The notes beneath the pieces were generated by a model, which saw only the letters and a program-made list of their open reading frames with translations, was not told the origin of the DNA and did no database searches. DNA of 64,000 bases from Eledone cirrhosa. Lineage: Eukaryota. This document shows positions 22,150-62,662 of this stretch, piece after piece. The position numbers and the translations under genes are program-made. Position 1 is the first letter of the stretch. Each line of letters starts with the position of its first letter. The stretch is from the NCBI GenBank assembly GCA_964016885.1, contig OZ024741.1, positions 75,020,001 through 75,084,000 of the forward strand, written 5' to 3'.

Positions 22150-25100
22150 ACACTCACCAATCCTCGATAAGAGTGTTTAAATGTCGAACCTAAACAGTTC
22201 GAATAACGGTGAAGTGGAGACTAGAATGTCATGTGACAGACTCTCACCCAGCAAGTGCTCCCTGGCTCAGCAGCAGGGACCTGGCTGTCAACCAAATACT
22301 GCTGGTGTCGGAGGAAGAAGAAGAAGAAGGCAAGGGACCAGAACCAACTGGACGAAAGAATTGAATAGAACTGTTATGCAATGTTACCTGAAGAGTAACC
22401 CCAAGGAGAAAGGCTATAGGAAACGGATGCATAACATCTGGAACGAGATTGGTCTATTTAAATTAGATGAACAAAAATTGGCCGGGCAGGCTCGGGTAAT
22501 AAGAACTAATGGGTAGATAAGCGAGCTGGAACTGGAGGAACTGAGCAGAGAGATTAGGTTGGAAATGGAGAGTGGAGTATGCCAGGCAAACGAGCCAAGG
22601 GGAAATGAAGGTGAAGAGGTTGAGAGAACGGAGGAACCATCCGAAGCAGACAATGATCTGAATGCTGAAATAAATAATACCTGGAACAAAGATACGGCCA
22701 TTGAGGAGATGAATGCTGACGGGCTAGGACAAGATTTGGTTGATATCCTAAACTTAGTGGTAGATGAAATGAACAACGATAGTGGGAAACCTATGAACCT
22801 AAGATTTGTAGACAGGAAAAAGTTAAAAGAAACAACAGCTAAGGTAAACAAAGTCATCCCATACCATGAGGCGAGGAGCCTTCACCAGTGCAACAATATC
22901 CTCAAAGCAACAGCAAATGCGGTGAGGAAATTACTTGGTATAAAAGCGAGAGGAAACAACAAACAAGAAAGATCAGAGCCTTGGTGGAAGAAACGACTGA
23001 ATGGTCAAATCAGGGAAATGAGAAATGACATTGGAAAGCTTGAGTCCCTACTGAATGGGACACTACAAAATATAGACACTAAAAATAGACTGGAAATAAA
23101 GTACAAAACTAGGAGGAAAAAGCTAAATATTATCATAGAGGAACTGAAGCAACGCATAGTAGCAAAGAGTGCAAAAATTAGGCGATACGAGAGTAGAGTC
23201 AGTCAGTATAGACAGAACCGCATGTTTGACAACAACCAGAAGATGCTGTTTGGACAGCTTGAAGGGAAACAAAGAGGCAACGACTTGATCCCTGAGGCGG
23301 AACAAACTAAAACATTCTGGAGAGGAATATGGGAGCAGGATGTTAAACATAATGACCAGGCAGTGTGGATTGAGACAGTACAGAAGGAGATTAGTGAACA
23401 GGCACACCAACAAACTGATTTGAGTATCACAGTTGAAACTCTTAAGGGGCAGGCCAAAAAACTAACCAACTGGAAATCACCAGGCCCAGATGGTGTGCAG
23501 GGGTATTGGATTAAAAATATAACATCCCTCCACCCGAAACTGACAACCATGTTCAATGACTGCTTGATGTCAGGTGAGGTACCAGAGTGGTTGACAAAAG
23601 GTACCACAGTTCTGGTAATGAAAGACCGAATCAAGGGTAATGATGTTACCAACTATAGACCTATCACATGTCTGTCCGTAATGTGGAAACTGTTGACAAG
23701 CATTGTGTCTGAGGAAATCTACCATCACCTCCACACAAACAACTTGTTACCGGATGAACAGAAAGGATGTCAAAAGAAGTCCCGTGGTACAAAGGACCAG
23801 TTACTTATTGTTAAGATGGTAATGAGGAATTGCAAGAGGAGACACACTGGTCTTGCCATGGGATGGATAGACTACAAAAAGGCATTTGACATGGTGCCTC
23901 ATTCTTGGATCACCAAAAGCCTAGAGATCTTCAAGGTGGCAGATAACATCAGACAGTTGTTGAGCAAAAGTATGAAGTACTGGAAAACAGAGTTAACATC
24001 AGCTGGAGAATCCTTGGGAGGCGTGAAGATCAAGAGAGGTATCTTCCAGGGAGATAGTCTGTCCCCTCTGTTGTTTGTCCTTGCCCTGATGCCCCTGACC
24101 ATTATACTGCGAAAAGTGAGAGCAGGATACAAGTTGGGAAAGGGAGAGTTTACCATCAATCACCTCCTCTTTATGGATGATCTTAAGCTCTTTGGGAAGA
24201 GTGAGAAGGAGTTGGATGTACTTGTTGACACTGTCCGTATTTTCAGCAATGATATATGTATGCAATTTGGTATTAGTAAATGTGGAGTCCTGGTGATGAA
24301 GAGGGGTAAATTGAGAAGAAGCAACGGAATCCAGGTACCAACAGGTGAGATGATAAAGGAAATTGACACTGAAGAAGGATACAAGTGTTTGGGTGTTCTG
24401 GAGGCTGATGACATCAAGAACAAACAAATGAAGGAATTGATAAGATCTGAATACATTCGGAGAGTAAGGAGCGTATTAAAGTCACATCTGAACAGTAGGA
24501 ATGCCATAAGTGCAGTAAATTCCTGAGCTGTGCCTATTATTAGGTACAGTGCGGAAATTCTGAGATGGAATGTTGCTGAACAAAAAGAAATGGATAGGAA
24601 GACTAGGAAGCTATTGACTATCTACAACAGAAATATATCTACAACATGTTCCACAAGAGGAGTGATGTCGATAGACTCTACTTAAGGAGATCTGAAGGTG
24701 GAAGAGGTCTTATTAGCATAGAGGACTGTGTTCAGATGGAGAAAAACAACCTACGCAAATATGTGACTGATAGTAAGGAGCCAATGCTCAGAATTGTACT
24801 GAAGGAGAGGACAATAGACCAGGGGATGTCCAAGGAGGAAATAACAACAAGGAGAAAGAGCAGCCTTCATGAAAAATCCCTTCATAGTACCTTCTTTGAG
24901 AAAACTGAATTCAGAGATCCGCAGACATGGAACTGGTTGAAAATAGGAGACCTTAAAAAGGCTACAGAAGGAATGCTAATGGCTGCGCAAGAGCAGGCCC
25001 TCAAAACGAAGTGGCTGAAACACCATATTTACAAGGAGGAGGCTTGCCCACTGTGCAGGATCTGTGGAGAGAGAGAGGAGACTGTGGCTCACATTGTATT

Positions 25101-25691
25101 CGAGTGTAAACACCTAACCCAGACTCACTATAAAGTCTGGAGACATGATGTGATGGGCAGGGTGATCAACTGGCACCTATGCAAAGTAAACAATTTACCA
25201 CATTCTGAGAAGTGGTATGAGCATAAGCCAGAGTCGGTGATAGAAAACGATCATGTGAAGGTGCTGTGGGAATTTAGGATACAGATGGACAAGAAACTGG
25301 AACACAATAGACCTGACCTGGTGGTTTTGGACAAGGAAAAAAGATCGTGCCTGATTGTGGATGTGGCCTGCCCATTCGACACGAGAGTGCAAGAGAAGGA
25401 GAGGGAGAAAATTAACCGATACCAGGACTTAAAGTGGGAGGTTAAAAGGATTTGGAACTGCCATGAGGTCAAAGTGGTCCCGATTGTCATAGGCGCACTA
25501 GGTACTATCTCAAGGAGTTTCCAGAAATTTGGCCCCGCCCTGCTTTTTGGAACACTTCAAAATGCATGCTTGCTGGGAATAGCAAGAACCCTCCGATACA
25601 TCTTGAATATCTGAGGCTGCAGTTAGTGGCTTGATATTCATTTCAACAAACTTTCCAGTTAACTAACATCAATGACTGAGACTCAAAGAAC

Positions 25692-41990: not shown

Positions 41991-42203
41991 AATGCCATGG
42001 TTGACGGAGGCTCGGCTCTGTAAGGTATAGTAATTTTTAACCGTTAAAACAATTGTAAATTGTTTAAAACTTGAACCAAATTGTTGATAAAGACACCCTC
42101 CTCCTCGTGAGAGGGGTCTTTCTGTACGTTATTTGGCCCTTCGGGGCTAAATAACCAGTTATTGGGGTTTTGTACCCAATATTCATTTTAAACAAAAAAC
42201 AAC

Positions 42204-44249
42204 ATGGCTACGAAAAAGAAATTTCATACGTCACTCCCACTCATTCCGTCTTCTTCCTCAATCATCACTACAGCAGAGAGAAGATTGTCTCTCTCCCTCC
42301 CTTCTCTTTCGCAAGTGACGAAAGAAAAGAAAAGTCTCGTGCAAAGCGTGCAAAGTTTCTCCACGACGACGACGACAGCGACGAAACAGGTGTGCGGGAA
42401 ATACGAAAACCCAGTTCATTCGTCTGACGTCAGGAATAATAGCAGTAGCAGCCGTAATAACAACAGCAACAGTGACAATGAAAACAACAGTAGCAGCCGC
42501 AACAGCATCACCAGCAGCATAAACAACAACAGCATTAGCAGCAGCAACACCAACAACAACCACAGCAACAGCGGCGGAGGCAGTAGTCGTAGTACCTGCA
42601 GCAACAACAAAAGTACCAGCAGCTCTGACGACAACAACAACAGCAGAGAAAAACCAATCTCATTTGCAGGTATTGCGAAAAACTTGGAAACAATCCTCAT
42701 AACAAATGAGGAATTAGAGGAAGCGAAGAAGATGGTTACAAAGAACGGACACCGAGCAATCTGCAAGGCAGCGGAAACATTTTTCGAAACCCAAGAGCAC
42801 TGTACGGTCACGTACCGTACAGTAAGTACAAAATCCCGTAGGGTGGAAAGAGCCACAGAGGCCCAAATACAAAAAGCCTTGGGGTCTGTGTGGCAGCGGA
42901 AAACGCACATCACCCGAGGCAAAAAATATGCCACCGTAGACGTACTTTTTGCCACACCCCAGGAGGCAAAGGCCCAATCAGTAGTGACCCTAAGGAGCGA
43001 GGAAATGGTGTTGGTGCCCTCCTACTGTGGGCAAAAAATTGTGAGGGTCAAACTAACCCACGTCCCCCCCGGAATGACCCCTTCTTGGCTGGCCGCGTCT
43101 GTCCTCGTCGGAATCGAGGACAAAACAACTGTACTGCAAGTACAGAAAAAAGTAAGAGAAGATTGGGTCGGCTCCTCCATTGAGATGCTAATCCAAACCA
43201 ACCAGGAGTGCATCGAAGCTATCCCGGATGTGATAGACTTCGATAACGGCACTCAACTGCCCATAAGTGTTGAGGGCAAACGCCCGAAATGCTTTCGCTG
43301 TGGATCGAAGACTCACCCCAGGGCCTTCTGCAACGAGAAGACCCTGAGAAAGGAGAAAACCCCCCTCCTTCCGAATCCGGCTCCACGGCTACCAGCAACA
43401 GGACAAGCGGCAACCAGGAACGATAGGTCCGTGGCACCCATACCCACTCCACGGAAATCAAAAACAGCAGCAGCAGTGGAAATATTAACAACAACAGCAA
43501 TACCAAATGCAGCTGCAACAGAGACTCCAGTGCAAACATCACCAACAACAAGTGAAAGAGTGGAGCTGGTACCCCTCCCCGACCTCACAGAATCAGACAT
43601 GGAGTGTGAGGTGGGAGAGGGATGGCAAAAGGTCGTAAGAAGGCACAAACGCAGAAGCAGCGCATCGTCGCCTTTGAAAAGGGAGGAAAGAAATGAGAAA
43701 AGGGTAAAGTCTACTGCAAAGAGACCCACAGCAGCAACAACACCAACACCATCACCACCCACACTAGCACCACCATCACCACCGCCAGCAACACCCTTAA
43801 CACCACCACCACAAGCACCAACATCGCAAACACAACAACAAAACACACACACCCAGCAACAACGACAAGAAAATAGTAGAACCACACCCCACCCCCAGAA
43901 AAACAAATGCACGGCAATAAATACACACAACAAGAAACTAATGACTTACATAATTGAACACACAGACATTTCACAACAGGACTACATAATACCAGCACCA
44001 ATCAAAACGCCAACTAACATAAGACTGCTAAAAATAGCACAGAAACAATACACAAACATTAAAACGAAATTCCCCAACGCAGTTGGTGATTTCAGGGACC
44101 TAGGAGGAACCATCAATCGAAGAGTATACTCAGACATTCTCTTAGAAGAGCCGACGACCAGCCGAAGGGACGATTCAACGGTCCCTTCACCAGACGATCA
44201 AGTGAAAAGGGATGTAAAAACCATCCCTCCTCTACCAAAAGTACGGTAA
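42204..44249 (+). CDS. LINE ORF1 (gag-like; CCHC zinc knuckle; N/S-rich and P/T-rich low-complexity tracts)
   Basis: 681-aa open frame containing CFRCGSKTHPRAFC and WQKVVRRHKRR, directly upstream of ORF2. Confidence 0.85.
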   Translation: MATKKKFHTSLPLIPSSSSIITTAERRLSLSLPSLSQVTKEKKSLVQSVQSFSTTTTTATKQVCGKYENPVHSSDVRNNSSSSRNNNSNSDNENNSSSRNSITSSINNNSISSSNTNNNHSNSGGGSSRSTCSNNKSTSSSDDNNNSREKPISFAGIAKNLETILITNEELEEAKKMVTKNGHRAICKAAETFFETQEHCTVTYRTVSTKSRRVERATEAQIQKALGSVWQRKTHITRGKKYATVDVLFATPQEAKAQSVVTLRSEEMVLVPSYCGQKIVRVKLTHVPPGMTPSWLAASVLVGIEDKTTVLQVQKKVREDWVGSSIEMLIQTNQECIEAIPDVIDFDNGTQLPISVEGKRPKCFRCGSKTHPRAFCNEKTLRKEKTPLLPNPAPRLPATGQAATRNDRSVAPIPTPRKSKTAAAVEILTTTAIPNAAATETPVQTSPTTSERVELVPLPDLTESDMECEVGEGWQKVVRRHKRRSSASSPLKREERNEKRVKSTAKRPTAATTPTPSPPTLAPPSPPPATPLTPPPQAPTSQTQQQNTHTQQQRQENSRTTPHPQKNKCTAINTHNKKLMTYIIEHTDISQQDYIIPAPIKTPTNIRLLKIAQKQYTNIKTKFPNAVGDFRDLGGTINRRVYSDILLEEPTTSRRDDSTVPSPDDQVKRDVKTIPPLPKVR

Positions 44250-44284
44250 GTGGTCTTTCCCATCTTTTCCACTCTATTTTAAAC

Positions 44285-47200
44285 ATGACCTCACTCAGAA
44301 TAGGCAGCATAAATGCGCGTGGCTTGGGGTCGTCATGGAAGCAGGGTCACCTGCTCAACGACCTCAGGTCACTAAACATAGATGTAGTGGCCATTAGCGA
44401 GACCAGAATCTCCGAAGCACGGGCATTCGCACCGATCTTCGGCGGCTACGATGTGTACGCATCTCCCAGCCGTCCTGGATCGGGTGGAGGAGTTGCTGTG
44501 CTTTTTCGGAGAGGTTTGGATCTCGCCATACGGGCCATCTTCCTGGACCCAGAGGGTAAGCTGGTGGTACTGGACATGACCAGCGGAGACGGGCAAGCTT
44601 TCAGGCTAGTGGCCGTCTATGCCCCGACAGGAGCAGGGCGGCCTGATTTCTTCCGGCGTCTGGAGACCTTTCTTGGAACGTCCCGCTCTTTAGTGTTAGT
44701 GGGCGACTGGAACGGGATCTTAGATGCACGCTGGGACTGTGTGGGATTAGCGGATAGGGGTGGAGGGTGCAAGAGCCTCACCAACCTGCTCAGGCGTTTT
44801 GAACTGTCTGACAGGTACCGATTGGATTTCCCGAATGTGCCAATGTGGACTTGGACAAACCGCATAGGGTCATCCAGATCATATCTAGATAGAGTATTTT
44901 GTAGGGAAATAGATAGGTCTAGCATAGGCTGTCCACAATTCAAGATAGTCAGCTACACGGACCACAAATTCGTGACCTGTGTGCTTGACTTAGATAGGCT
45001 TCATAGACGAGGACCCGGCTACTGGAAGCTAAACGCGTCCTTACCAGCGCGCAAGGCCTACAGAGACCGGATTAGCGAACTAGTTAAGCGGGCGTTGACG
45101 GGGGCCATCGTCAACAACAAGTGGTGGTTTGCTCTGAAAAGAGCGATTAGAATAGAATCGATTAGGTTTAGTAAGGCTTTAGCAATAGAGAAAAATAGAG
45201 CAGAGGGAGAACTAGTTAAAAAATTAGACGAGGCGCTTAGCAAAGGCATTGCGACCGACGTGCTTGCGGCGAAATTGGCCCTTGACCAATTCTTCAATGC
45301 AAAGCACGAAGGCTGCGTTGTCAGAGCTAGGGTGCGTGCTCTCAGACACGAGGGGACGAAAGCCGTTCAATGGGCCCGAGTGGCGGAGGCGCGTCGTGGC
45401 AACAAAGCCACGATCCGGTCTTTGGTGGACCACGACGGGCGCATGCTACTCGATCCCGGGCAAATGTGTGAAGCTTTTCAGCGACACTTCGCTCAGCTGT
45501 TCGGGGGCAGCGGGGGGCCGGGTAGAGGGATGGACTTTAGTGTCTACCTCGACGGACTGCCGCGGCTCTCGGCCACTGAGGCGAAGTGTTGCGAAAAGCC
45601 GATAACAGCCGCTGAAGTAAGGGAGGCAATGACTGGCTGCACAAGGGGTAAATCGCCTGGTTTGGATGGTCTGCCCTATGAACTTTACGTACAGATGCCA
45701 GACTTGTTCGGAGGCCTCTTGGCGGACGTCTACTGCAACTGGCAACAGAACGGGACAATTCCCAGTTCTGTGAGCTGAGGAGCGGTGGCACTGCTGAGAA
45801 AGGATCCGAACAAGGGGGATAACATAGACAATTTCCGGCCCATAACTCTGCTAAACACAGAGTTTAAGATTTTGGCCAAGGTGCTAGCAAAGAGGTTGGC
45901 GTTTGTCGTTGGTGGTCTGGTGGGAGAGGCGCAGACATGCGCCATTCCCGACAGATCCATCCACGACAACCTCCACCTCATGCGATACATCGTAGAGAGA
46001 GTAGCTAGGGAACCTGGCACGGGTGGGTCCTTGATCAATTTAGATCAGTCGAAAGCTTTCGATAGGGTCGACCATCGTTACCTAGCGGCAGTCCTGAGGG
46101 CGGCTGGCTTTGGGCCCGTCTTCAGAGGCTGGATCGCTGCCATGCACAGCGACATCTGCTCTGTGGTGAGAGTGAACGGTCACCTGTCGGAACCGTTCAA
46201 CATCATGCGCTCGGTCCGCCAAGGATGTCCCCTCTCGTCCCTCTTGTACGTATTGACTCTCGAGCCATTACTGCACAAACTGGAGACGTTGAGGGGAGTC
46301 CCGCGCGAACTAGGATGCGGAAGATCAGTGTCAGCATATGCGGACGATGTCACCGTAGTGGTGTCGAGCTCCAAACACATCGAGGCGATCGGCACTACAC
46401 TAAGAGAATACGAAGCGGTGACAGGAGCAATGATCAACCAGGAAAAGTCAGTGGGCCTGCAGCTCGGCACCTGGAGAGGCAGGTCCATGCCGTCCAACAG
46501 CGTCGTCGGACGCTGGACGGACGGACCGGTTAAATTGCTAGGGGTCTGGTTCGGTCCGGACCTCCAGACGGACAAAAACTGGGACGAAGTGACGAGCAGG
46601 GTGGCTTCTCTCACCCAGAAATGGGCGGAGAGGAAGCTATCCCTGAAAGGTCGAGCGGAGGTGGCTAACGCGTACATCGCGTCCGTCATCTGCTACCGTC
46701 TGACCGTCGTACCTTGTCCTAAGCCTCGCCTGACTGCGCTGGAGCGTTTGCTCTTTCGCTTTTTGTGGAAGGGACGCGCTCCGATGGTCAGGCGGTCCAT
46801 CTGTTGTCAACACCCGCTACGTGGAGGGCTGGGCATGCCGTGGCTGATGATGCGCAGGCACGCGCTCAGGCTACGACATCTCCACCTCTTCCTCGACGGT
46901 GATCAGGTGTGGTCGCCGTTTGCTAGGCGCGTGTTTCCCCAGCTCGTTTCCTTGACGGAGCTGCAGTCCTGGGTCAAGCGAAGACCGAGAGGGAGCGCCT
47001 GGAGACTGGAATGTCTTCAGGCGCTCACAGCCCTCGACCAATCGGGCAATGTGATCTGTGGAAACTCCACCTCGGCGTTCTATAGAGGTTTAGTGGAGGG
47101 GAAGAGCGATGACGTACTTGGGGAAACTCTAGGCGTCGACGAAAATCAACTAGCCAATCTCTTCGGAAGAACTTTCGGGACAGGGCCTATGGACAACTTC

Positions 47201-47704
47201 CAGAAATCTCTGGCCTGGCAGTGCTACCGAGGAGCCTTGCCAGTTCGGGATAAACTCTACAGGCATGGAGGTGCCGTCAGCCGGGCATGTCCGAGATGCG
47301 CGCAGGGCGACGAAACCGTCCTGCACGCACTCGTCCAGTGTCCGAAAATTGCTGACTTGTGGGTTTATGTCGAACACCTGCTGTCGCGTTTAGGACGGAT
47401 CCGGCTATCATCTGAGTCCATCGTGAGGATTGCCCCGCCCTCCTCCTTTAGCCGGGAAGGGCAGGCAGTTTTTATCTGCCTGGTAGCCATGGTGAAAGAG
47501 ATAGTATGGTGGACACGTTTGAAAGGGCTGAAGACGAGCACTTACCTCTTCGGTGATGCTCTGATTGACTTTTTCAAATTTCATTTGAAAAGGAAAATCA
47601 GAGTAGAGAGGGAAGTGCTCTCTTCCCAGCATTTTGTTGAAAGATGGGTGAGAGAAGCAAGAATGGCCCGAGTGAATGGGCCTACTCTGAGTATATATCT
47701 GTAA
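44285..47704 (+). pseudogene. LINE ORF2 (APE endonuclease + RT + C-terminal zinc finger) with a single in-frame TGA at 45776-45778
   Basis: SINARGL, ISETR, VGDWN, SYLDRV, YTDH, KSPGLDG, NFRPITLLN, LDQSKAFD, VRQGCPLS, YADD, CPRC..ETVLHALVQC. The 497-aa and 639-aa ORFs share one frame. Confidence 0.92.
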
Positions 47705-55098: not shown

Positions 55099-58000
55099 GA
55101 GTCGTTAATGCTCACTACCTTTTAACTAACCGACAGTGACTACATAATTATCGCTGGCGACCTAAATGGTCACGTTGGACAACATTGTGACGGCTACGAC
55201 GGAATCCATGGAGGCTATGGGTTTGGTACTAGAAATGAGGTAGGCTCCAGAATCCTGGAATTCTGTGACGCAAATAACCTGACTATTGTAACACTAACTT
55301 CAAAAGACGAGACAATCACTTGATCACCTATAGATCAGGGGAACACACCAGCCAGATAGGTTATATCCTTACCAGAAGACGTGACAGTGTGTCTGTTGTA
55401 AACTCTAAATCCCTCTCCCATGAAGAATGCACCTCTCAACATAGACTCATAATTAGCGATCTCATAGTCAGGACGAGACGTACTCGACAACAGAGGAGGA
55501 CTATCCTCAGGAGAAAAAATATGGAAGCTAAAGGACCCCACAGCCAGTAATAAATTTAAAATCATATTACTTGATGCTTTTGATAGTAAGGAAGAGCAAT
55601 TAGAGTCGTACAATATAGAGGAACAGTGGGAATTCCTGAAAGCTAACCTGCTGAAGGCGACAGATGAAATCTGTGGCTGGAGCAGGCCTATAGGCAGGGG
55701 GAGAGTAACGTGGTGGTGGAACAGTAAAGTGGAGGAGTCAATCAAGGCCAAAAAGCAGGCTTGGAAAGCATGGCGGGATGGGGGAAGTAGAGAAGACTAT
55801 CAAGTGGCCAGGAGGGAAGCTAGGAGACAAGTGTACTTCGCCAGAAGGGAAGCAGAGGAAAGAAAGTTCAAGCATGTTCTACAACGCGAGGACCAAAAAC
55901 GTGAGGTGTTCAGGATTGTTAGGCAATATGTCAAGGAAAACCGTGATATTGTCGAGGAGAAGTGTGTCCTTAATGATGATGGTGTACTTGCCATCACTGA
56001 CGCTGATAAGAAGGTAGCTTGGAAGTGTCACTACGAAAAGCTACTAAATGAGGAGAATAAATGGGAGAAAGACAGTCTCCCCCACATCAATCCAATAGAG
56101 GGACCAGCAGTGCAAGTTAAAGGTAGTATAATAAGTAAGGCGATCAAAGATATGAAGACAGGCAATGCGACTGGGCCTTCGGAAATAGTTGCTGAAAGCA
56201 TCTGGAACGGTGGGACACACTATGGTCACCCGGATAGTAAACCAAGTCATACAGAATGGGGTCGTTCCAAAGGACTGGCGTAGCAGCATCATCATTAACT
56301 GCTACAAGGGTAAAGGAGATGCCTTAGATAGGGGTAACTATAGAGGCATTAATTAATTAGGAGGTCACAGAAAAAGTAATAGCGCAACTAATCAGAGAGT
56401 GAATTGATCTAGATGAAATGCAGTTCGGTTTTGTGTCAGGTAAAAGTACCACAGACGCTCTTTTCATTGTACGACAACTACAGAAGAAGTACCTAGCTAA
56501 AAGTAAACCCCTATACTTAGCTTTTGTTGACTTGGAGAAAGCCTTTGACAGAGTCCCCCGCTCCATTATCTGGTGGGCTCTTAGAAAACTAGGTGTTGAT
56601 GAATGGCTTGTGAGAGCTATACAAGCCATGTATAAAGAAACAGTCAGCAAGGTTAGAATTAACAACGAATATAGCGAAGAGTTTAGCGTAAAAGTTGGTG
56701 TTCATCAGGGCTCTGTCCTTAGCCCCCTCCTATTTATTATTGCCCTTCGGGCTATAACAGAGGAGTTCAAGACGGCTGCCTATGGGAACTCCTATACGCA
56801 GATGATCTAACGCTCATAGCTGAATCAATGGCTGAACTAGAGAAGAAATTCCAAACATGGAAGCACGGTCTAAAATTAAAAGGCCTTAAAATTAACCTGT
56901 CTAAGACTAAAGTTCTAGTTTGTAGGGAGGAAAATAGGGCACTGGTCTCATCTGGGAAATGGCCATGCTCAGTGTGTAGGAAATGAGTAGGCAGAAACCC
57001 CATTTTATGTCCCAAATGCAAAGTATGGGTGCATAAAAGATGTAGTGGGATCACAGGTAAGCTAACTAAGAATATAGATTTTATGTGGCCGGTGCTCTGG
57101 TGCAATAAGTAGCAGCAAGTGCCCACAGAATACTAGCTTATTTCATTGCACAGATGGTTCTATAGAAATAGTGGACACCTTCCGTTACCTGGGTGACAAA
57201 ATCAGCAGTGGTGGAGGGTGCTCTGAAAGTACAGTAGCTTGAGTCAGAACGGGATGGAAAAAGTTCAGAGAGCTTATGCCACTATTGGCCGCTAAAGGGT
57301 TCTCTCTAAAAATGAAAGGCAGGCTGTATGATGCCTGCATACGAACAGCAATGTTACATGGCAGTGAGACTTGGGCATTGTGTGAAGAGGATATACGCAG
57401 ACTGGAGAGGAACAAAGCTTGCATGCTCCGCTGGATGTGTAATAGTAATATACGTGAACGGCAAAGCATAAATGAACTAAGGGAGAAATTAGGAATAAGA
57501 GGGTTCAGATGTTGTTTACTCGAGAGAAGACTACGTTGGTATGGTCACGTGATGCGCATGAAAGACGACAGTTGTATAAAAAAGTGCAGGGCGATAAAAA
57601 TAGACGGTAGCCACGGAGTAGGCAGACCCAGAAAAACCTGGGACGACTTGATAAATTCCGACCTTACACACTTACACCTCTCCAAGACAATGTCACTGGA
57701 CCGAGATCTTTGGTGCTACACAGTAATACAGAAGCGAAACCTACAGTCAGTAGGCACCTCTAACAAAAATACACCCCCGTCCCACTACCCCCACCACCCC
57801 TTTCAATGTAAAGTTATTTTGGTACCACAACATCCAGTCGGAAATAAATGAGGTCGTGTAGGTGTCACGACAAAAAAACACACAGTCCACGCTGTAATGT
57901 GGCCATGTAGGCAACACGGTAAAAACCTCCCAGTTCCACACTGTAAACGTGGTTGGTGTTAGGAAGGGCATCCAGCCGTAGAAATCCCGCCAGACAGTCC

Positions 58001-58105
58001 TCTACGAGCAAGACAACCAATCTTGCCTCAAGTGGGAAAATTCCCGTCCAAACCCATGCAAGCGTGGAAGATGGACGTTAAACGATGATGATGATGATGA
58101 TGATA
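55099..58105 (+). mobile_element. RTE-clade LINE, nearly full ORF (APE remnant + RT + PHD-like insert), frameshifted
   Basis: IIAGDLNGHVG, QFGF..GKSTTDALF, AFVDLEKAFD, GVHQGSVLSP, LLYADDL, LHGSETW, RRLRWYGH, and a (GAT)n tail. Confidence 0.92.
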
Positions 58106-58931: not shown

Positions 58932-58934
<3 letters not shown>

Positions 58935-59135
58935 GAAAGATTTGAATGGATACAGTTTAGTTGAAAAGAATTTATTGACACGTGTTTCTATAACAGTTAC
59001 ATAACCTGAAAACAGCTGCTATCTACAAACTTTCAAGTTTGTAGATAGCAGCTGTTTTCAGGTTATGTAACTGTTATAGAAACACGTGTCAATAAATTCC
59101 TTTCAACTAAACTGTATCCATTCAAATCTTTCTAT
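58932..59135. repeat. Near-perfect 204-bp palindrome (about 101-bp arms)
   Basis: Centre aaactt-tc-aagttt at 59033/59034, with one mismatch. Contains GAAACACGTGTC-aataaa. Confidence 0.95.
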
Positions 59136-59401
59136 TTTTCTCCGGATTACTTTTGGAACTACAACTGGAACCGTCGAGCAAACTCTACGTGAGCTGATAA
59201 TCTACTGTGTGTAATATTTATATTACAACACAACGGAAAATACTGTATATATATATATATATATTAGAAAGTGAGGTTTTTTTTACAAAATGAAAAATAA
59301 CCGAGGTGTCCTACACGAGTGGAAGTATAAAGAAAAAGGGATGAAATCGAAAATGCAACTGAAGTCTTATTTTTTTTAAAAATATATATATGTATTTGGT
59401 T

Positions 59402-59439
59402 CCTTTACCGGTTTCGCAGTTCTTCTGCTTTTCAAAAGG
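59402..59439 (-). ncRNA. Minimal type-I hammerhead, U3-A8 core variant
   Basis: Reverse complement: cctt-TTGAAAA-gcag aagaa ctgc-GAA-accggt-A-aagg. Confidence 0.75.
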
Positions 59440-59470
59440 TGAGTTGAGATGGAGGGTCTGTGGTTTTTCT

Positions 59471-59524
<54 letters not shown>

Positions 59525-59646
59525 GACAAACATAGAATATTCGAAAATATTCTGTATGTTTATAATAAACATTTTGAAGACCTAATCGCTATAGAATAGA
59601 ATACGTCACGTATTACAATTTGAGATTCTCGATAAAAGCAAGGGAA

Positions 59647-59689
59647 GTAACCTACGCGTTTCATTCTTATTAGAAATCATCAGGATTAC
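59647..59689 (-). ncRNA. Minimal hammerhead ribozyme
   Basis: Reverse complement of the 60248-60290 motif. Confidence 0.82.
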
Positions 59690-59958
59690 ATATCCAGTGC
59701 TTTTATCGAGAATGACACAGCTAGAGACTTATAGAATACTTAGCTGTGTACAGGGACTGGTTTGAAAGAGCGGTTGCCGGTCCGGCAGAAATTAGAATTT
59801 GGATTTAATGCTCTGAAATAGCGATATATATGTGAAGACAAACATAGAATATTCGAAAATATTCTGTATGTTTATAATAAACATTTTGAAGACCTAATCG
59901 CTATAGAATAGAATACGTCACGTATTACAATTTGAGATTCTCGATAAAAGCAAGGGAA

Positions 59959-60001
59959 GTAACCTACGCGTTTCATTCTTATTAGAAATCATCAGGATTA
60001 C
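59959..60001 (-). ncRNA. Minimal hammerhead ribozyme
   Basis: Reverse complement of the 60248-60290 motif. Confidence 0.82.
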
Positions 60002-60247
60002 ATATCCAGTGCTTTTATCGAGAATGACACAGCTAGAGACTTATAGAATACTTAGCTGTGTACAGGGACTGGTTTGAAAGAGCGGTTGCCGGTCCAGCAG
60101 AAATTATATATATCGCTATTTCAGAGCATTAAATCCAAATTCTAATTTCTGCCGGACCGGCAACCGCTCTTTCAAACCAGTTCCTGTACACAGCTAAGTA
60201 TTCTATAAGTCTCTAGCTGTGTCATTCTCGATAAAAGCACAGGATAT

Positions 60248-60290
60248 GTAATCCTGATGATTTCTAATAAGAATGAAACGCGTAGGTTAC
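60248..60290 (+). ncRNA. Minimal hammerhead ribozyme
   Basis: gtaatc-CTGATGA-t ttct aata agaa t-GAA-acgcgt-A-ggttac. Confidence 0.85.
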
Positions 60291-60559
60291 TTCCCTTGCT
60301 TTTATCGAGAATCTCAAATTGTAATACGTGACGTATTCTATTCTATAGCGATTAGGTCTTCAAAATGTTTATTATAAACATACAGAATATTTTCGAATAT
60401 TCTATGTTTGTCTTCACATATATATCGCTATTTCAGAGCATTAAATCCAAATTCTAATTTCTGCCGGACCGGCAACCGCTCTTTCAAACCAGTTCCTGTA
60501 CACAGCTAAGTATTCTATAAGTCTCTAGGTGTGTCATTCTCGATAAAAGCACTGGATAT

Positions 60560-60602
60560 GTAATCCTGATGATTTCTAATAAGAATGAAACGCGTAGGTT
60601 AC
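60560..60602 (+). ncRNA. Minimal hammerhead ribozyme
   Basis: Identical to 60248-60290, 312 bp downstream. Confidence 0.85.
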
Positions 60603-60758
60603 TTCCCTTGCTTTTATCGAGAATCTCAAATTGTAATACGTGACGTATTCTATTCTATAGCGATTAGGTCTTCAAAATGTTTATTATAAACATACAGAAT
60701 ATTTTCGAATATTCTATGTTTGTCTTCACATATATATCGCTATTTTAGAGCATTAAAT

Positions 60759-60854
<96 letters not shown>

Positions 60855-62042: not shown

Positions 62043-62662
62043 ATCATCATCATCATCATCATCAACGTTTAACGTCCGTGTTCCACGCTTGCATGGGTTT
62101 GGACGGGGGTTTTCCCACTTGAGGCAAGAGTGATTGTGTTGCTCGCATAGGACTGTCTGGCGGGTTTTCTACAGTTGGATGCCCTTCCTAACACCAACCA
62201 CATTTACAGTGTGGGGCTGGGAGGTTTTTACCGTGTTACCTACACGGCCACATTACAGCGTGGACTGTGTGTTTTTTGTCGTGACACCTACACGATCTCA
62301 TTTGTTTCGGCCTGGATGGTGTGGCACCAACATAACTTTACATAGAAGGGGGCGGTGTGGATGGGGTGGGGGTGGTGGGATGGGGGTGTATTTTGTTAGA
62401 GATGCCTACTGACTGTAGTAGGTTTTACTTTGTATTTAGGTAAGGTGGGTCTTCTCTATTACTGAGTACCGCCAAAGGTCTCGGTCCAGTGACATTGTCT
62501 TGGAGAGGTGTAAGTGTGTGAGGTCGGAATTTATCAGCTCGTCCCAGGTTTTTCTGGGTCTGCCTATTCCGTGGCTACCGTCTATCTTTATTGCCCTGCA
62601 CTTTGTTATACAGCTATCGTCTTTCATGCGCATCACGTGACCATACCAACGTAGCCTTCTCG
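62043..62662 (-). mobile_element. RTE 3' fragment (same subfamily as 55099-58105)
   Basis: Close reverse complement of about 57525-58100. Confidence 0.9.

What the first reader, a model, noticed from the sequence alone, without database searches (positions are those of the whole stretch)
59520..60761. Palindromic array of four 312-nt non-coding units, each with a minimal hammerhead: candidate retrozyme or circular-RNA element
Seen: four near-identical units, two tandem on each strand. Each has gtaatc-CUGAUGA-(uucu aaua agaa)-GAA-acgcgu-A-gguuac, and the predicted GUA sites (60284, 60596) are exactly 312 nt apart. Stem I is extended by a perfect 16-bp inverted repeat (attctcgataaaagca/tgcttttatcgagaat). 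The unit holds more hairpins (cagcta..tagctg, aatacgtgacgtatt, agaatattttcgaatattct) and has no ORF in the track. Established: minimal hammerheads with a palindromic stem III occur in Penelope pLTRs and tandem retrozymes, and cleave as dimers. Inference: a read-through transcript would self-cut into a structured 312-nt monomer that could circularise and be retro-copied by a Penelope RT. Because of the palindrome, transcription from either side gives a sense dimer.
Basis: partly seen in the sequence, partly recalled or inferred. Interest (0 to 1): 0.9.

Follow-up and report, generated by a model that had tools for sequence, protein, structure and literature searches.

The report
Back-to-back hammerhead retrozyme arrays
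This is one of more than a thousand recent insertions of a small non-coding jumping element with a hammerhead ribozyme motif; the copies examined mostly sit as two back-to-back runs of one repeat with one short and one long end, a pattern that likely records two Penelope-type enzymes copying one RNA circle.

Summary
The locus is a head-to-head pair of tandem arms (1.9 and 2.1 copies of a 312-nt unit) carrying four type I hammerhead cores. The genome holds 14,242 such cores.

Of 76 loci examined, 65 have two arms; 59 pair a short end with a long end carrying a ~35-nt tail, 6 have one atypical end, none has two like ends. An independent coordinate test gave 53 of 53 mixed pairs. Ends run into (TA)n. 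Inner ends are scattered and ignore the cleavage site.

In the youngest subfamily all 324 units in 29 loci carry their locus's haplotype, including ten haplotypes seen once and fixed on both arms. Young autonomous Penelope-like elements here show the same two-end rule.

Verdict: a non-autonomous Penelope-type retrozyme. It is likely inserted by priming on both DNA strands and likely copied by rolling circle from one monomer. Cleavage, circles, expression and the partner enzyme are untested.

The parts
59521..60106 (-). Left arm: 5'-truncated unit (from q38) plus one unit, ending at the short end (q311, no tail) in (TA)n
60106..60761 (+). Right arm: two 312-nt units plus a 32-nt tail (long end)
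60106..60106 (.). Central head-to-head junction of the two 5' ends, 1-nt overlap
60248..60290 (+). Type I hammerhead (helix I GUAAUC/GGUUAC, palindromic ACGCGU); predicted cut 3' of 60284
60560..60602 (+). Type I hammerhead; predicted cut 3' of 60596
59647..59689 (-). Type I hammerhead, outer unit of the left arm
59959..60001 (-). Type I hammerhead, inner unit of the left arm
60224..60312 (+). 16-bp helix extending helix I (60224-60239 with 60297-60312; repeated at 60536-60624)
60345..60452 (+). Conserved 3' module: closing helix, two covarying hairpins, the internal CACATATATAT tract (short-end site) and the tail up to the long-end site; likely what the reverse transcriptase recognises
60730..60761 (+). 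Tail, present at this end only
59474..59520 (.). (TA)n target tract, left
60762..60853 (.). (CA)n(TA)n target tract, right

Best explanation
It is a young, non-coding repeat family with a type I hammerhead motif that sits in (TA)n tracts as two back-to-back tandem arms, and it is likely a non-autonomous Penelope-type retrozyme that a borrowed Penelope enzyme inserts by priming on both DNA strands, likely copying one circular monomer repeatedly. Steps: (1) inferred: a sense multimer is transcribed, most plausibly from single-armed copies or from within an arm, not across the palindrome. (2) Inferred: two hammerheads pair through ACGCGU and cut out a ~312-nt monomer, which is ligated into a circle. 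(3) Shown as a genomic pattern, enzyme inferred: both strands of a (TA)n tract are nicked and both 3' ends prime cDNA, one at the internal CACAUAUAUAU tract (short end) and the other ~35 nt further 3' (long end), one of each per insertion. (4) Inferred: both enzymes run round the same template for a variable number of turns. Shown: the arms pass the cleavage site without stopping and, in young loci, carry one haplotype. (5) Shown as a pattern: the two truncated cDNA ends are joined at microhomology, which gives the palindrome.
For: 14,242 exact cores, reversed control 0. 987 exact long ends and 1,162 exact short ends of the young subfamily. 53 of 53 outward-facing end pairs within 10 kb are mixed. 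59 of 65 two-armed loci are short+long and none is like+like (with three re-reads by eye). 118 of 123 typed ends run into (TA)n. Inner ends: 3 of 130 within q175-185 against 4.6 expected; 70 of 130 arms cross the cut site at least twice. Junction overlap of 2 nt or more in 38 of 50 gap-free junctions against 18% by chance. All 324 units in 29 young loci carry the locus haplotype; there are 15 haplotypes, and the 10 seen once are fixed on both arms. Helix I stays paired across subfamily changes. The 3' module covaries: 4 pairs changed on both sides, 98.9% of cells paired. Autonomous elements here obey the same rule: F3 has a 1,025-aa RT plus GIY-YIG ORF, 98-100% identical copies, and 6 of 6 two-armed loci are short+long with a 41-nt tail; 7 two-armed F1 loci also do, with a 70-nt tail. 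Literature: an inverted truncated copy, a one-sided 30-40-bp tail and (TA)n bias in Penelope-like elements (PMC8557442); extension of both strands and two internal start sites bounding the tail in vitro (PMC11167929).
Against: There is no direct evidence of transcription, cleavage or circles. The double-hammerhead fold lies 10.6 kcal/mol above the predicted minimum, and G10.1-C11.1 is missing. Only 1 of 9 Xenopus retrozyme dimers cleaved in vitro (bioRxiv 10.64898/2026.07.22.740005), and hammerhead mutants did not affect insertion in vitro (PMC11167929). No sequence homology was found between the unit and 8 sampled autonomous families, so the partner is not identified. In this very locus one variant (q77) is confined to the left arm. 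Older loci show variants shared by runs of neighbouring units or missing from single units (L043, L044, L045, L047, L051, L057, L065, L066), and two young loci (L291, L292) have repeated variants, so DNA-level conversion or multi-unit templates also act. In vitro, start-site use did not differ between strands (PMC11167929).
Confidence: 0.6

Rival explanations
1. Same element and same priming on both strands, but the template is an uncut linear multimer transcribed from homogeneous parent arrays. The hammerhead is dispensable or acts elsewhere, and homogeneity comes from copying already homogeneous parents plus occasional single-unit founders expanded in DNA.
For: Unprocessed RNA was the dominant substrate in vitro, and hammerhead mutants inserted normally (PMC11167929). 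Autonomous F3 and F1 show the same end rule with kilobase units. Arms that cross the cut site fit an uncut RNA equally well. Nine of 29 young loci share one haplotype.
Against: Ten of 15 haplotypes are singletons fixed in every unit of both arms, for example one change in all 22 units of L304. Non-overlapping copying of a linear RNA would put a new mutation in one unit of one arm, and 5' truncation alone can only shorten arrays, yet one arm reaches 27 units. Helix I pairing is kept through subfamily changes.
Confidence: 0.27
2. Short two-armed insertions were expanded and homogenised afterwards at the DNA level (unequal crossover, gene conversion between arms), like satellite DNA.
For: Runs of shared variants in adjacent units of older loci. 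Local amplification is the model discussed in bioRxiv 10.64898/2026.07.22.740005.
Against: The least diverged arrays are the longest: up to 27 full units per locus at 0.034% private variants, against at most 7 full units in the older 312-nt sample (that sample was chosen by BLAST score). Intermediate-frequency variants, expected during conversion, occur in only 2 of 29 young loci.
Confidence: 0.11
3. The palindrome is an assembly or foldback-read artefact.
For: No read or contig laid here spans the whole locus.
Against: The arms differ in length and ends, dozens of loci have different breakpoints, the short+long rule is strict, and some loci show target-site duplications.
Confidence: 0.02

Closest known systems
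Non-LTR retrozymes of animals (Cervera and de la Pena 2020, PMC7229834; Li et al. 2026, bioRxiv 10.64898/2026.07.22.740005)
   Same: Non-coding tandem units of ~300 nt, low GC, one type I hammerhead per unit, dispersed dimers to multimers, coexisting Penelope-like elements, proposed circular intermediate.
   Different: Neither main text describes inverted two-armed arrays ('inverted' 0 hits, and 1 hit in a reference title), and Li et al. mentions no tail. Expression, cleavage and circles are shown for those elements but not here. Homology to a pLTR was found for 24 of 57 Xenopus families; none was found here.
Endonuclease-bearing Penelope-like elements (Craig et al. 2021, PMC8557442), including non-autonomous Chlamys such as MRC1
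   Same: 5' truncation, partial tandems, an inverted truncated copy at the 5' end, a 30-40-bp tail often at one end only, (TA)n bias, a hammerhead near the 3' end, multicopy head-to-tail non-autonomous forms.
   Different: No ORF. Both arms are long multimers of a 312-nt unit. The one-sided tail is a strict rule here (53 of 53), not a tendency.
PAc (Poseidon of Anolis) in vitro system (Frangieh et al. 2024, PMC11167929)
   Same: Two internal start sites bounding the tail, AT-rich targets, extension of both strands, a predicted protein dimer.
   Different: PAc start sites lack homology to the target and did not differ between strands. Here the short-end site is a (YA)n tract mostly in register with the (TA)n target, and the two sites are used one per strand.
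L1 twin priming (recalled, not read here)
   Same: Priming from both nicks gives an inverted arm joined at microhomology.
   Different: In L1 the two primers copy different parts of one linear RNA and the first primes on poly(A). Here both arms carry the same unit repeatedly and both start sites are internal.

Membership tests
Non-LTR retrozyme | Tandem 150-450-bp non-coding units, GC below 50%, no LTR/PBS/PPT | tested here: met
   310-312-nt period, 34% GC, longest ATG ORF 34 aa; PBS/PPT not searched for separately
Non-LTR retrozyme | Type I hammerhead in each unit | tested here: met
   Core boxes intact and helices I-III assignable; pairing kept across variants; G10.1-C11.1 absent and Rfam score below threshold
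Non-LTR retrozyme | Dispersed multi-copy family | tested here: met
Non-LTR retrozyme | Self-cleavage of multimeric RNA | not testable with these tools
   Only folding energies: double hammerhead 10.6 kcal/mol above the minimum
Non-LTR retrozyme | Expression as linear and circular monomers | tested here: inconclusive
   The runs that could be laid were contigs, which cannot show expression; indirect support from haplotype fixation
Penelope-like element (non-autonomous) | 5'-truncated tandem copies with an inverted truncated copy | tested here: met
   65 of 76 loci two-armed and head-to-head
Penelope-like element (non-autonomous) | 30-40-bp tail at one end | tested here: met
Penelope-like element (non-autonomous) | (TA)n target bias | tested here: met
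   118 of 123 typed ends (some loci were selected by patterns that contain the TA run)
Penelope-like element (non-autonomous) | 3' sequence shared with an autonomous partner | tested here: inconclusive
   No homology to 8 families drawn from 50 of the 150 scored GIY-YIG hits (10,597 candidates) plus one neighbouring locus; F3 matches in geometry only
Penelope-like element (autonomous) | RT plus GIY-YIG ORF | tested here: not met
   No such ORF in the unit or between the arms
Minimal hammerhead (min-HHR, PMC4209133) | No helix III insert, helix II 7-8 bp, helix I 4-5 bp, G10.1-C11.1 | tested here: not met
   Helix I 6 bp, helix II 4 bp, palindromic helix III, U at 10.1

The most novel reading that the evidence does not exclude
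These arrays are a genomic record of twin rolling-circle retrotransposition. An asymmetric dimer of a Penelope enzyme loads both nicked DNA strands onto two fixed sites 35 nt apart on a single hammerhead-made RNA circle, and the two polymerases chase each other round it by strand displacement. That would be direct evidence for the circular-template model of retrozymes, a role for Penelope hammerheads, and an explanation of the one-sided tail.
Probability: 0.4. Interest if true: 0.82.

Novelty: new variant of a known kind. Interest (0 to 1): 0.6.

Why it matters
How Penelope-like elements make tandem and inverted insertions, what their hammerheads do, and whether retrozyme circles are real templates are stated open questions (PMC8557442, PMC4209133, PMC7229834, PMC11167929). 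This family gives more than a thousand very young insertions of a tiny template with two sharp, countable rules: one short and one long end per insertion, and one haplotype per young locus. Both can be tested in vitro with a 312-nt RNA and an intact candidate enzyme from the same genome. Separately, hundreds of kilobase-long near-perfect inverted repeats would be a source of double-stranded RNA and of fragile DNA if transcribed (inference).

Tried and rejected
Rfam gave no hammerhead at gathering score; its microRNA hits are generic hairpins. No RNA holder was listed among sequencing runs, which says nothing on expression. The four runs laid were contigs, none spanning the locus. Search for the autonomous partner: GIY-YIG loci, altered-spacer hammerheads and the shared 3' module found sister retrozymes but no ORF-linked homologue. 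Two chimeras of a sister retrozyme with F3 (L224) and F2 (L225) are like-ended and fit later insertion with deletion, so they are not used as partner evidence. Cleaved linear monomers as templates were rejected, since inner ends are not enriched at the cut site. A signature of A-to-I editing was not seen: 4 A>G against 6 T>C among 79 private changes. Obligatory telomerase-like addition of TA was rejected: L141 has a 15-bp duplication with no added TA, and TA runs at short and long ends are alike (medians 22 and 21 nt). No periodic variant pattern supports a multimer circle. Three look-ups of earlier scan findings returned nothing. The host looked like a cephalopod from its repeat landscape (recalled, unverified); two literature searches on that guess listed nothing on such an element.

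Full report
Observation. The window holds two tandem arms whose 5' ends meet at 60106. Numbering the unit from 60418 (q1 to q312), the left arm (-, 59521-60106) runs from q38 through one junction to q311 and then into (TA)24. The right arm (+, 60106-60761) runs from q1 through two units to q32 and then into (CA)16(TA)31. Four hammerhead cores are present and none is expected by chance. The predicted cut is after q179. The motif has helix I GUAAUC/GGUUAC, a 4-bp helix II flanked by two unpaired U, and the palindrome ACGCGU, which cannot close helix III in a monomer but can between two units. That double fold is nested and feasible, 10.6 kcal/mol above the predicted minimum. The cut-to-cut monomer is more structured than shuffles (z -3.7).

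It is a large young family. A DNA search of the own genome gave 449 candidates, 40 scored and 200 matches, most at 97-100% identity. Pattern counts: 14,242 exact cores; 20,959 matches to a 3' module shared with sister families; 128 exact long ends of the 312-nt subfamily; and 987 long and 1,162 short ends of a younger 310/311-nt subfamily. Sister families of ~324-333 nt share the layout but not the sequence of the helix I extension. One has the U3-A8 core variant described for Penelope hammerheads in PMC4209133. Helix I stays paired across subfamily changes: GUAAUC/GGUUAC, GUAGUC/GAUUAC, GUAGUC/GAC(U)UAC. In 15 sequences of the 3' module, chosen by me from 22 pattern hits, 98.9% of cells pair and 4 of 18 pairs change on both sides; RNAalifold finds the same fold unprompted. 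These sequences are related, so the shuffle control overstates significance.

The palindrome is a rule of insertion. I examined 76 loci: this one, 37 other BLAST clusters, 15 taken in chromosome order, 3 more, and 20 chosen only for having a long end. Sixty-five have two arms, all head-to-head. The script called 58 short+long and 7 with one untyped end. By eye L128 and L272 are short+long and L044 is atypical, giving 59 short+long, 6 with one atypical end, and no like-ended locus. Independently, among the first 100 short and 78 long ends on contig C1, all 53 outward-facing neighbours within 10 kb are mixed, P about 2e-17 if ends were drawn independently. The other listed ends had no exact-pattern partner. 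118 of 123 typed ends run into (TA)n. Short ends fall at q307-312 in the internal CACATATATAT tract, mostly in register with the target. Long ends fall at q29-41, with modes at 33 and 35. Left and right flanks share an interrupted motif in 11 of 65 loci against 0.3 in swapped flanks. Several of these are pre-existing minisatellite tracts, but L141, L040 and L286 read as target duplications. Inner ends are spread round the unit (3 of 130 near the cut, 4.6 expected). They join with overlaps of 2 nt or more in 38 of 50 gap-free junctions (18% by chance), and 15 of 65 junctions have filler.

These are Penelope hallmarks. Craig et al. (PMC8557442; passages read) describe partial tandems, an inverted truncated copy, a 30-40-bp tail often at one end and (TA)n bias. 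Frangieh et al. (PMC11167929; first two of four parts and passages read) show a Penelope protein extending both strands from two internal sites that bound the tail, without needing its hammerhead. This genome has 10,597 GIY-YIG candidates. Family F3 has an intact 1,025-aa ORF with RT, a CxxxxCxxC linker and GIY-YIG, copies 98-100% identical, a cut-to-short-end distance of 123 nt (133 here) and a 41-nt tail (38 here, measured from the same GTCTT). Six of 6 two-armed loci among 23 examined are short+long. F1 does the same with a 70-nt tail. No sampled family shares sequence with the unit, so F3 is a candidate by geometry only.

Template. In 29 loci of the young subfamily (9 from earlier fetches, 20 long ones picked), all 324 full units carry their locus's haplotype. 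There are 15 haplotypes, and the 10 seen once are fixed on both arms. Private changes are 0.034% per base. Three loci had no full unit on one arm. A change fixed in all 22 units of both arms at one locus of 29 needs a single-unit bottleneck that both polymerases passed through. A monomer circle gives this, and also supplies the length gain (up to 27 units) that 5' truncation cannot. This is the model proposed in PMC4209133 (first two of four parts read) and PMC7229834 (part 2, discussion and passages read). Against it: two young loci have repeated variants, older loci have runs of shared variants, this locus has one arm-specific change, assembly polishing could smooth arrays, and homogeneous parents copied as linear RNA would look similar for common haplotypes. 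Li et al. (bioRxiv 10.64898/2026.07.22.740005; first three of five parts read) discuss local DNA amplification and found cleavage in 1 of 9 dimers.

Expression. A transcript across the whole locus is predicted to form 591 inter-arm pairs. Such loci are therefore poor sources of circles unless transcription starts inside an arm, and single-armed copies (11 of 76 here) are the likelier parents (inference).

Verdict. The element fits non-LTR retrozymes on the features testable here and works like a non-autonomous Penelope element. The inverted copy and one-sided tail are known for Penelope elements. I found no description of two-armed retrozyme arrays, of the strict end pairing, or of both-arm haplotype fixation in searches. 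Those searches cover open-access text only, and I read no supplements. Confidence that it is a Penelope-mobilised retrozyme is about 0.9; confidence in the full model including the circle is about 0.6.

Noticed in passing
window 59256-59475 (-): 5'-truncated 3' end, with its 70-nt tail, of autonomous Penelope-like family F1 (95-99% to copies downstream of ORFs in L143, L144, L148). It has a hammerhead-like core with CAGAAGA and a palindromic ACCGGT. The retrozyme sits in the TA run at its inner end.
   Followed up: partly
window 58932-59135: Perfect palindrome with 101-nt arms beside TA runs; the arm sequence recurs at 98-99% in L145 and L146. Probably another inverted Penelope-type insertion.
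   Followed up: partly
window 57524-58104 and 62046-62661: Inverted pair of a ~600-nt interspersed repeat, 83-93% complementary, flanking the region.
   Followed up: no
window 22517-25611 and 42192-47701 (+): Long open frames that read like two LINE-type retrotransposons (judged by eye; not scanned).
   Followed up: no
L040, L286; window 60762-60791: Where a target duplication can be read, the repeat runs next to the element are longer than the matching runs on the far side (L040: 31 vs 12 nt and 20 vs 7 nt). The (CA)16 here may be the same effect. Primer slippage at initiation or later expansion; unexplained.
   Followed up: partly
L141:7812-8460, L136:4271-4640, L099, L189/L190: At least three sister retrozyme families (~324-333 nt) with different hammerheads and the same 3' module. 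Ten two-armed examples read by eye also look short+long.
   Followed up: partly
L224:2736-5589 and L225:4284-4896: Chimeras joining a sister retrozyme to F3 or F2 Penelope sequence; template switch or later insertion with deletion.
   Followed up: partly
L131, L141, L289: Three unrelated loci share the same inner junction (q119/q192), made at the unit's 16-bp inverted repeat.
   Followed up: yes
runs X1 and X5: Contigs of two runs under different organism codes cover the unit at very high summed depth with their own variants, so related families probably occur in other species. X4 and X6 each hold one ~340-nt contig of it.
   Followed up: no
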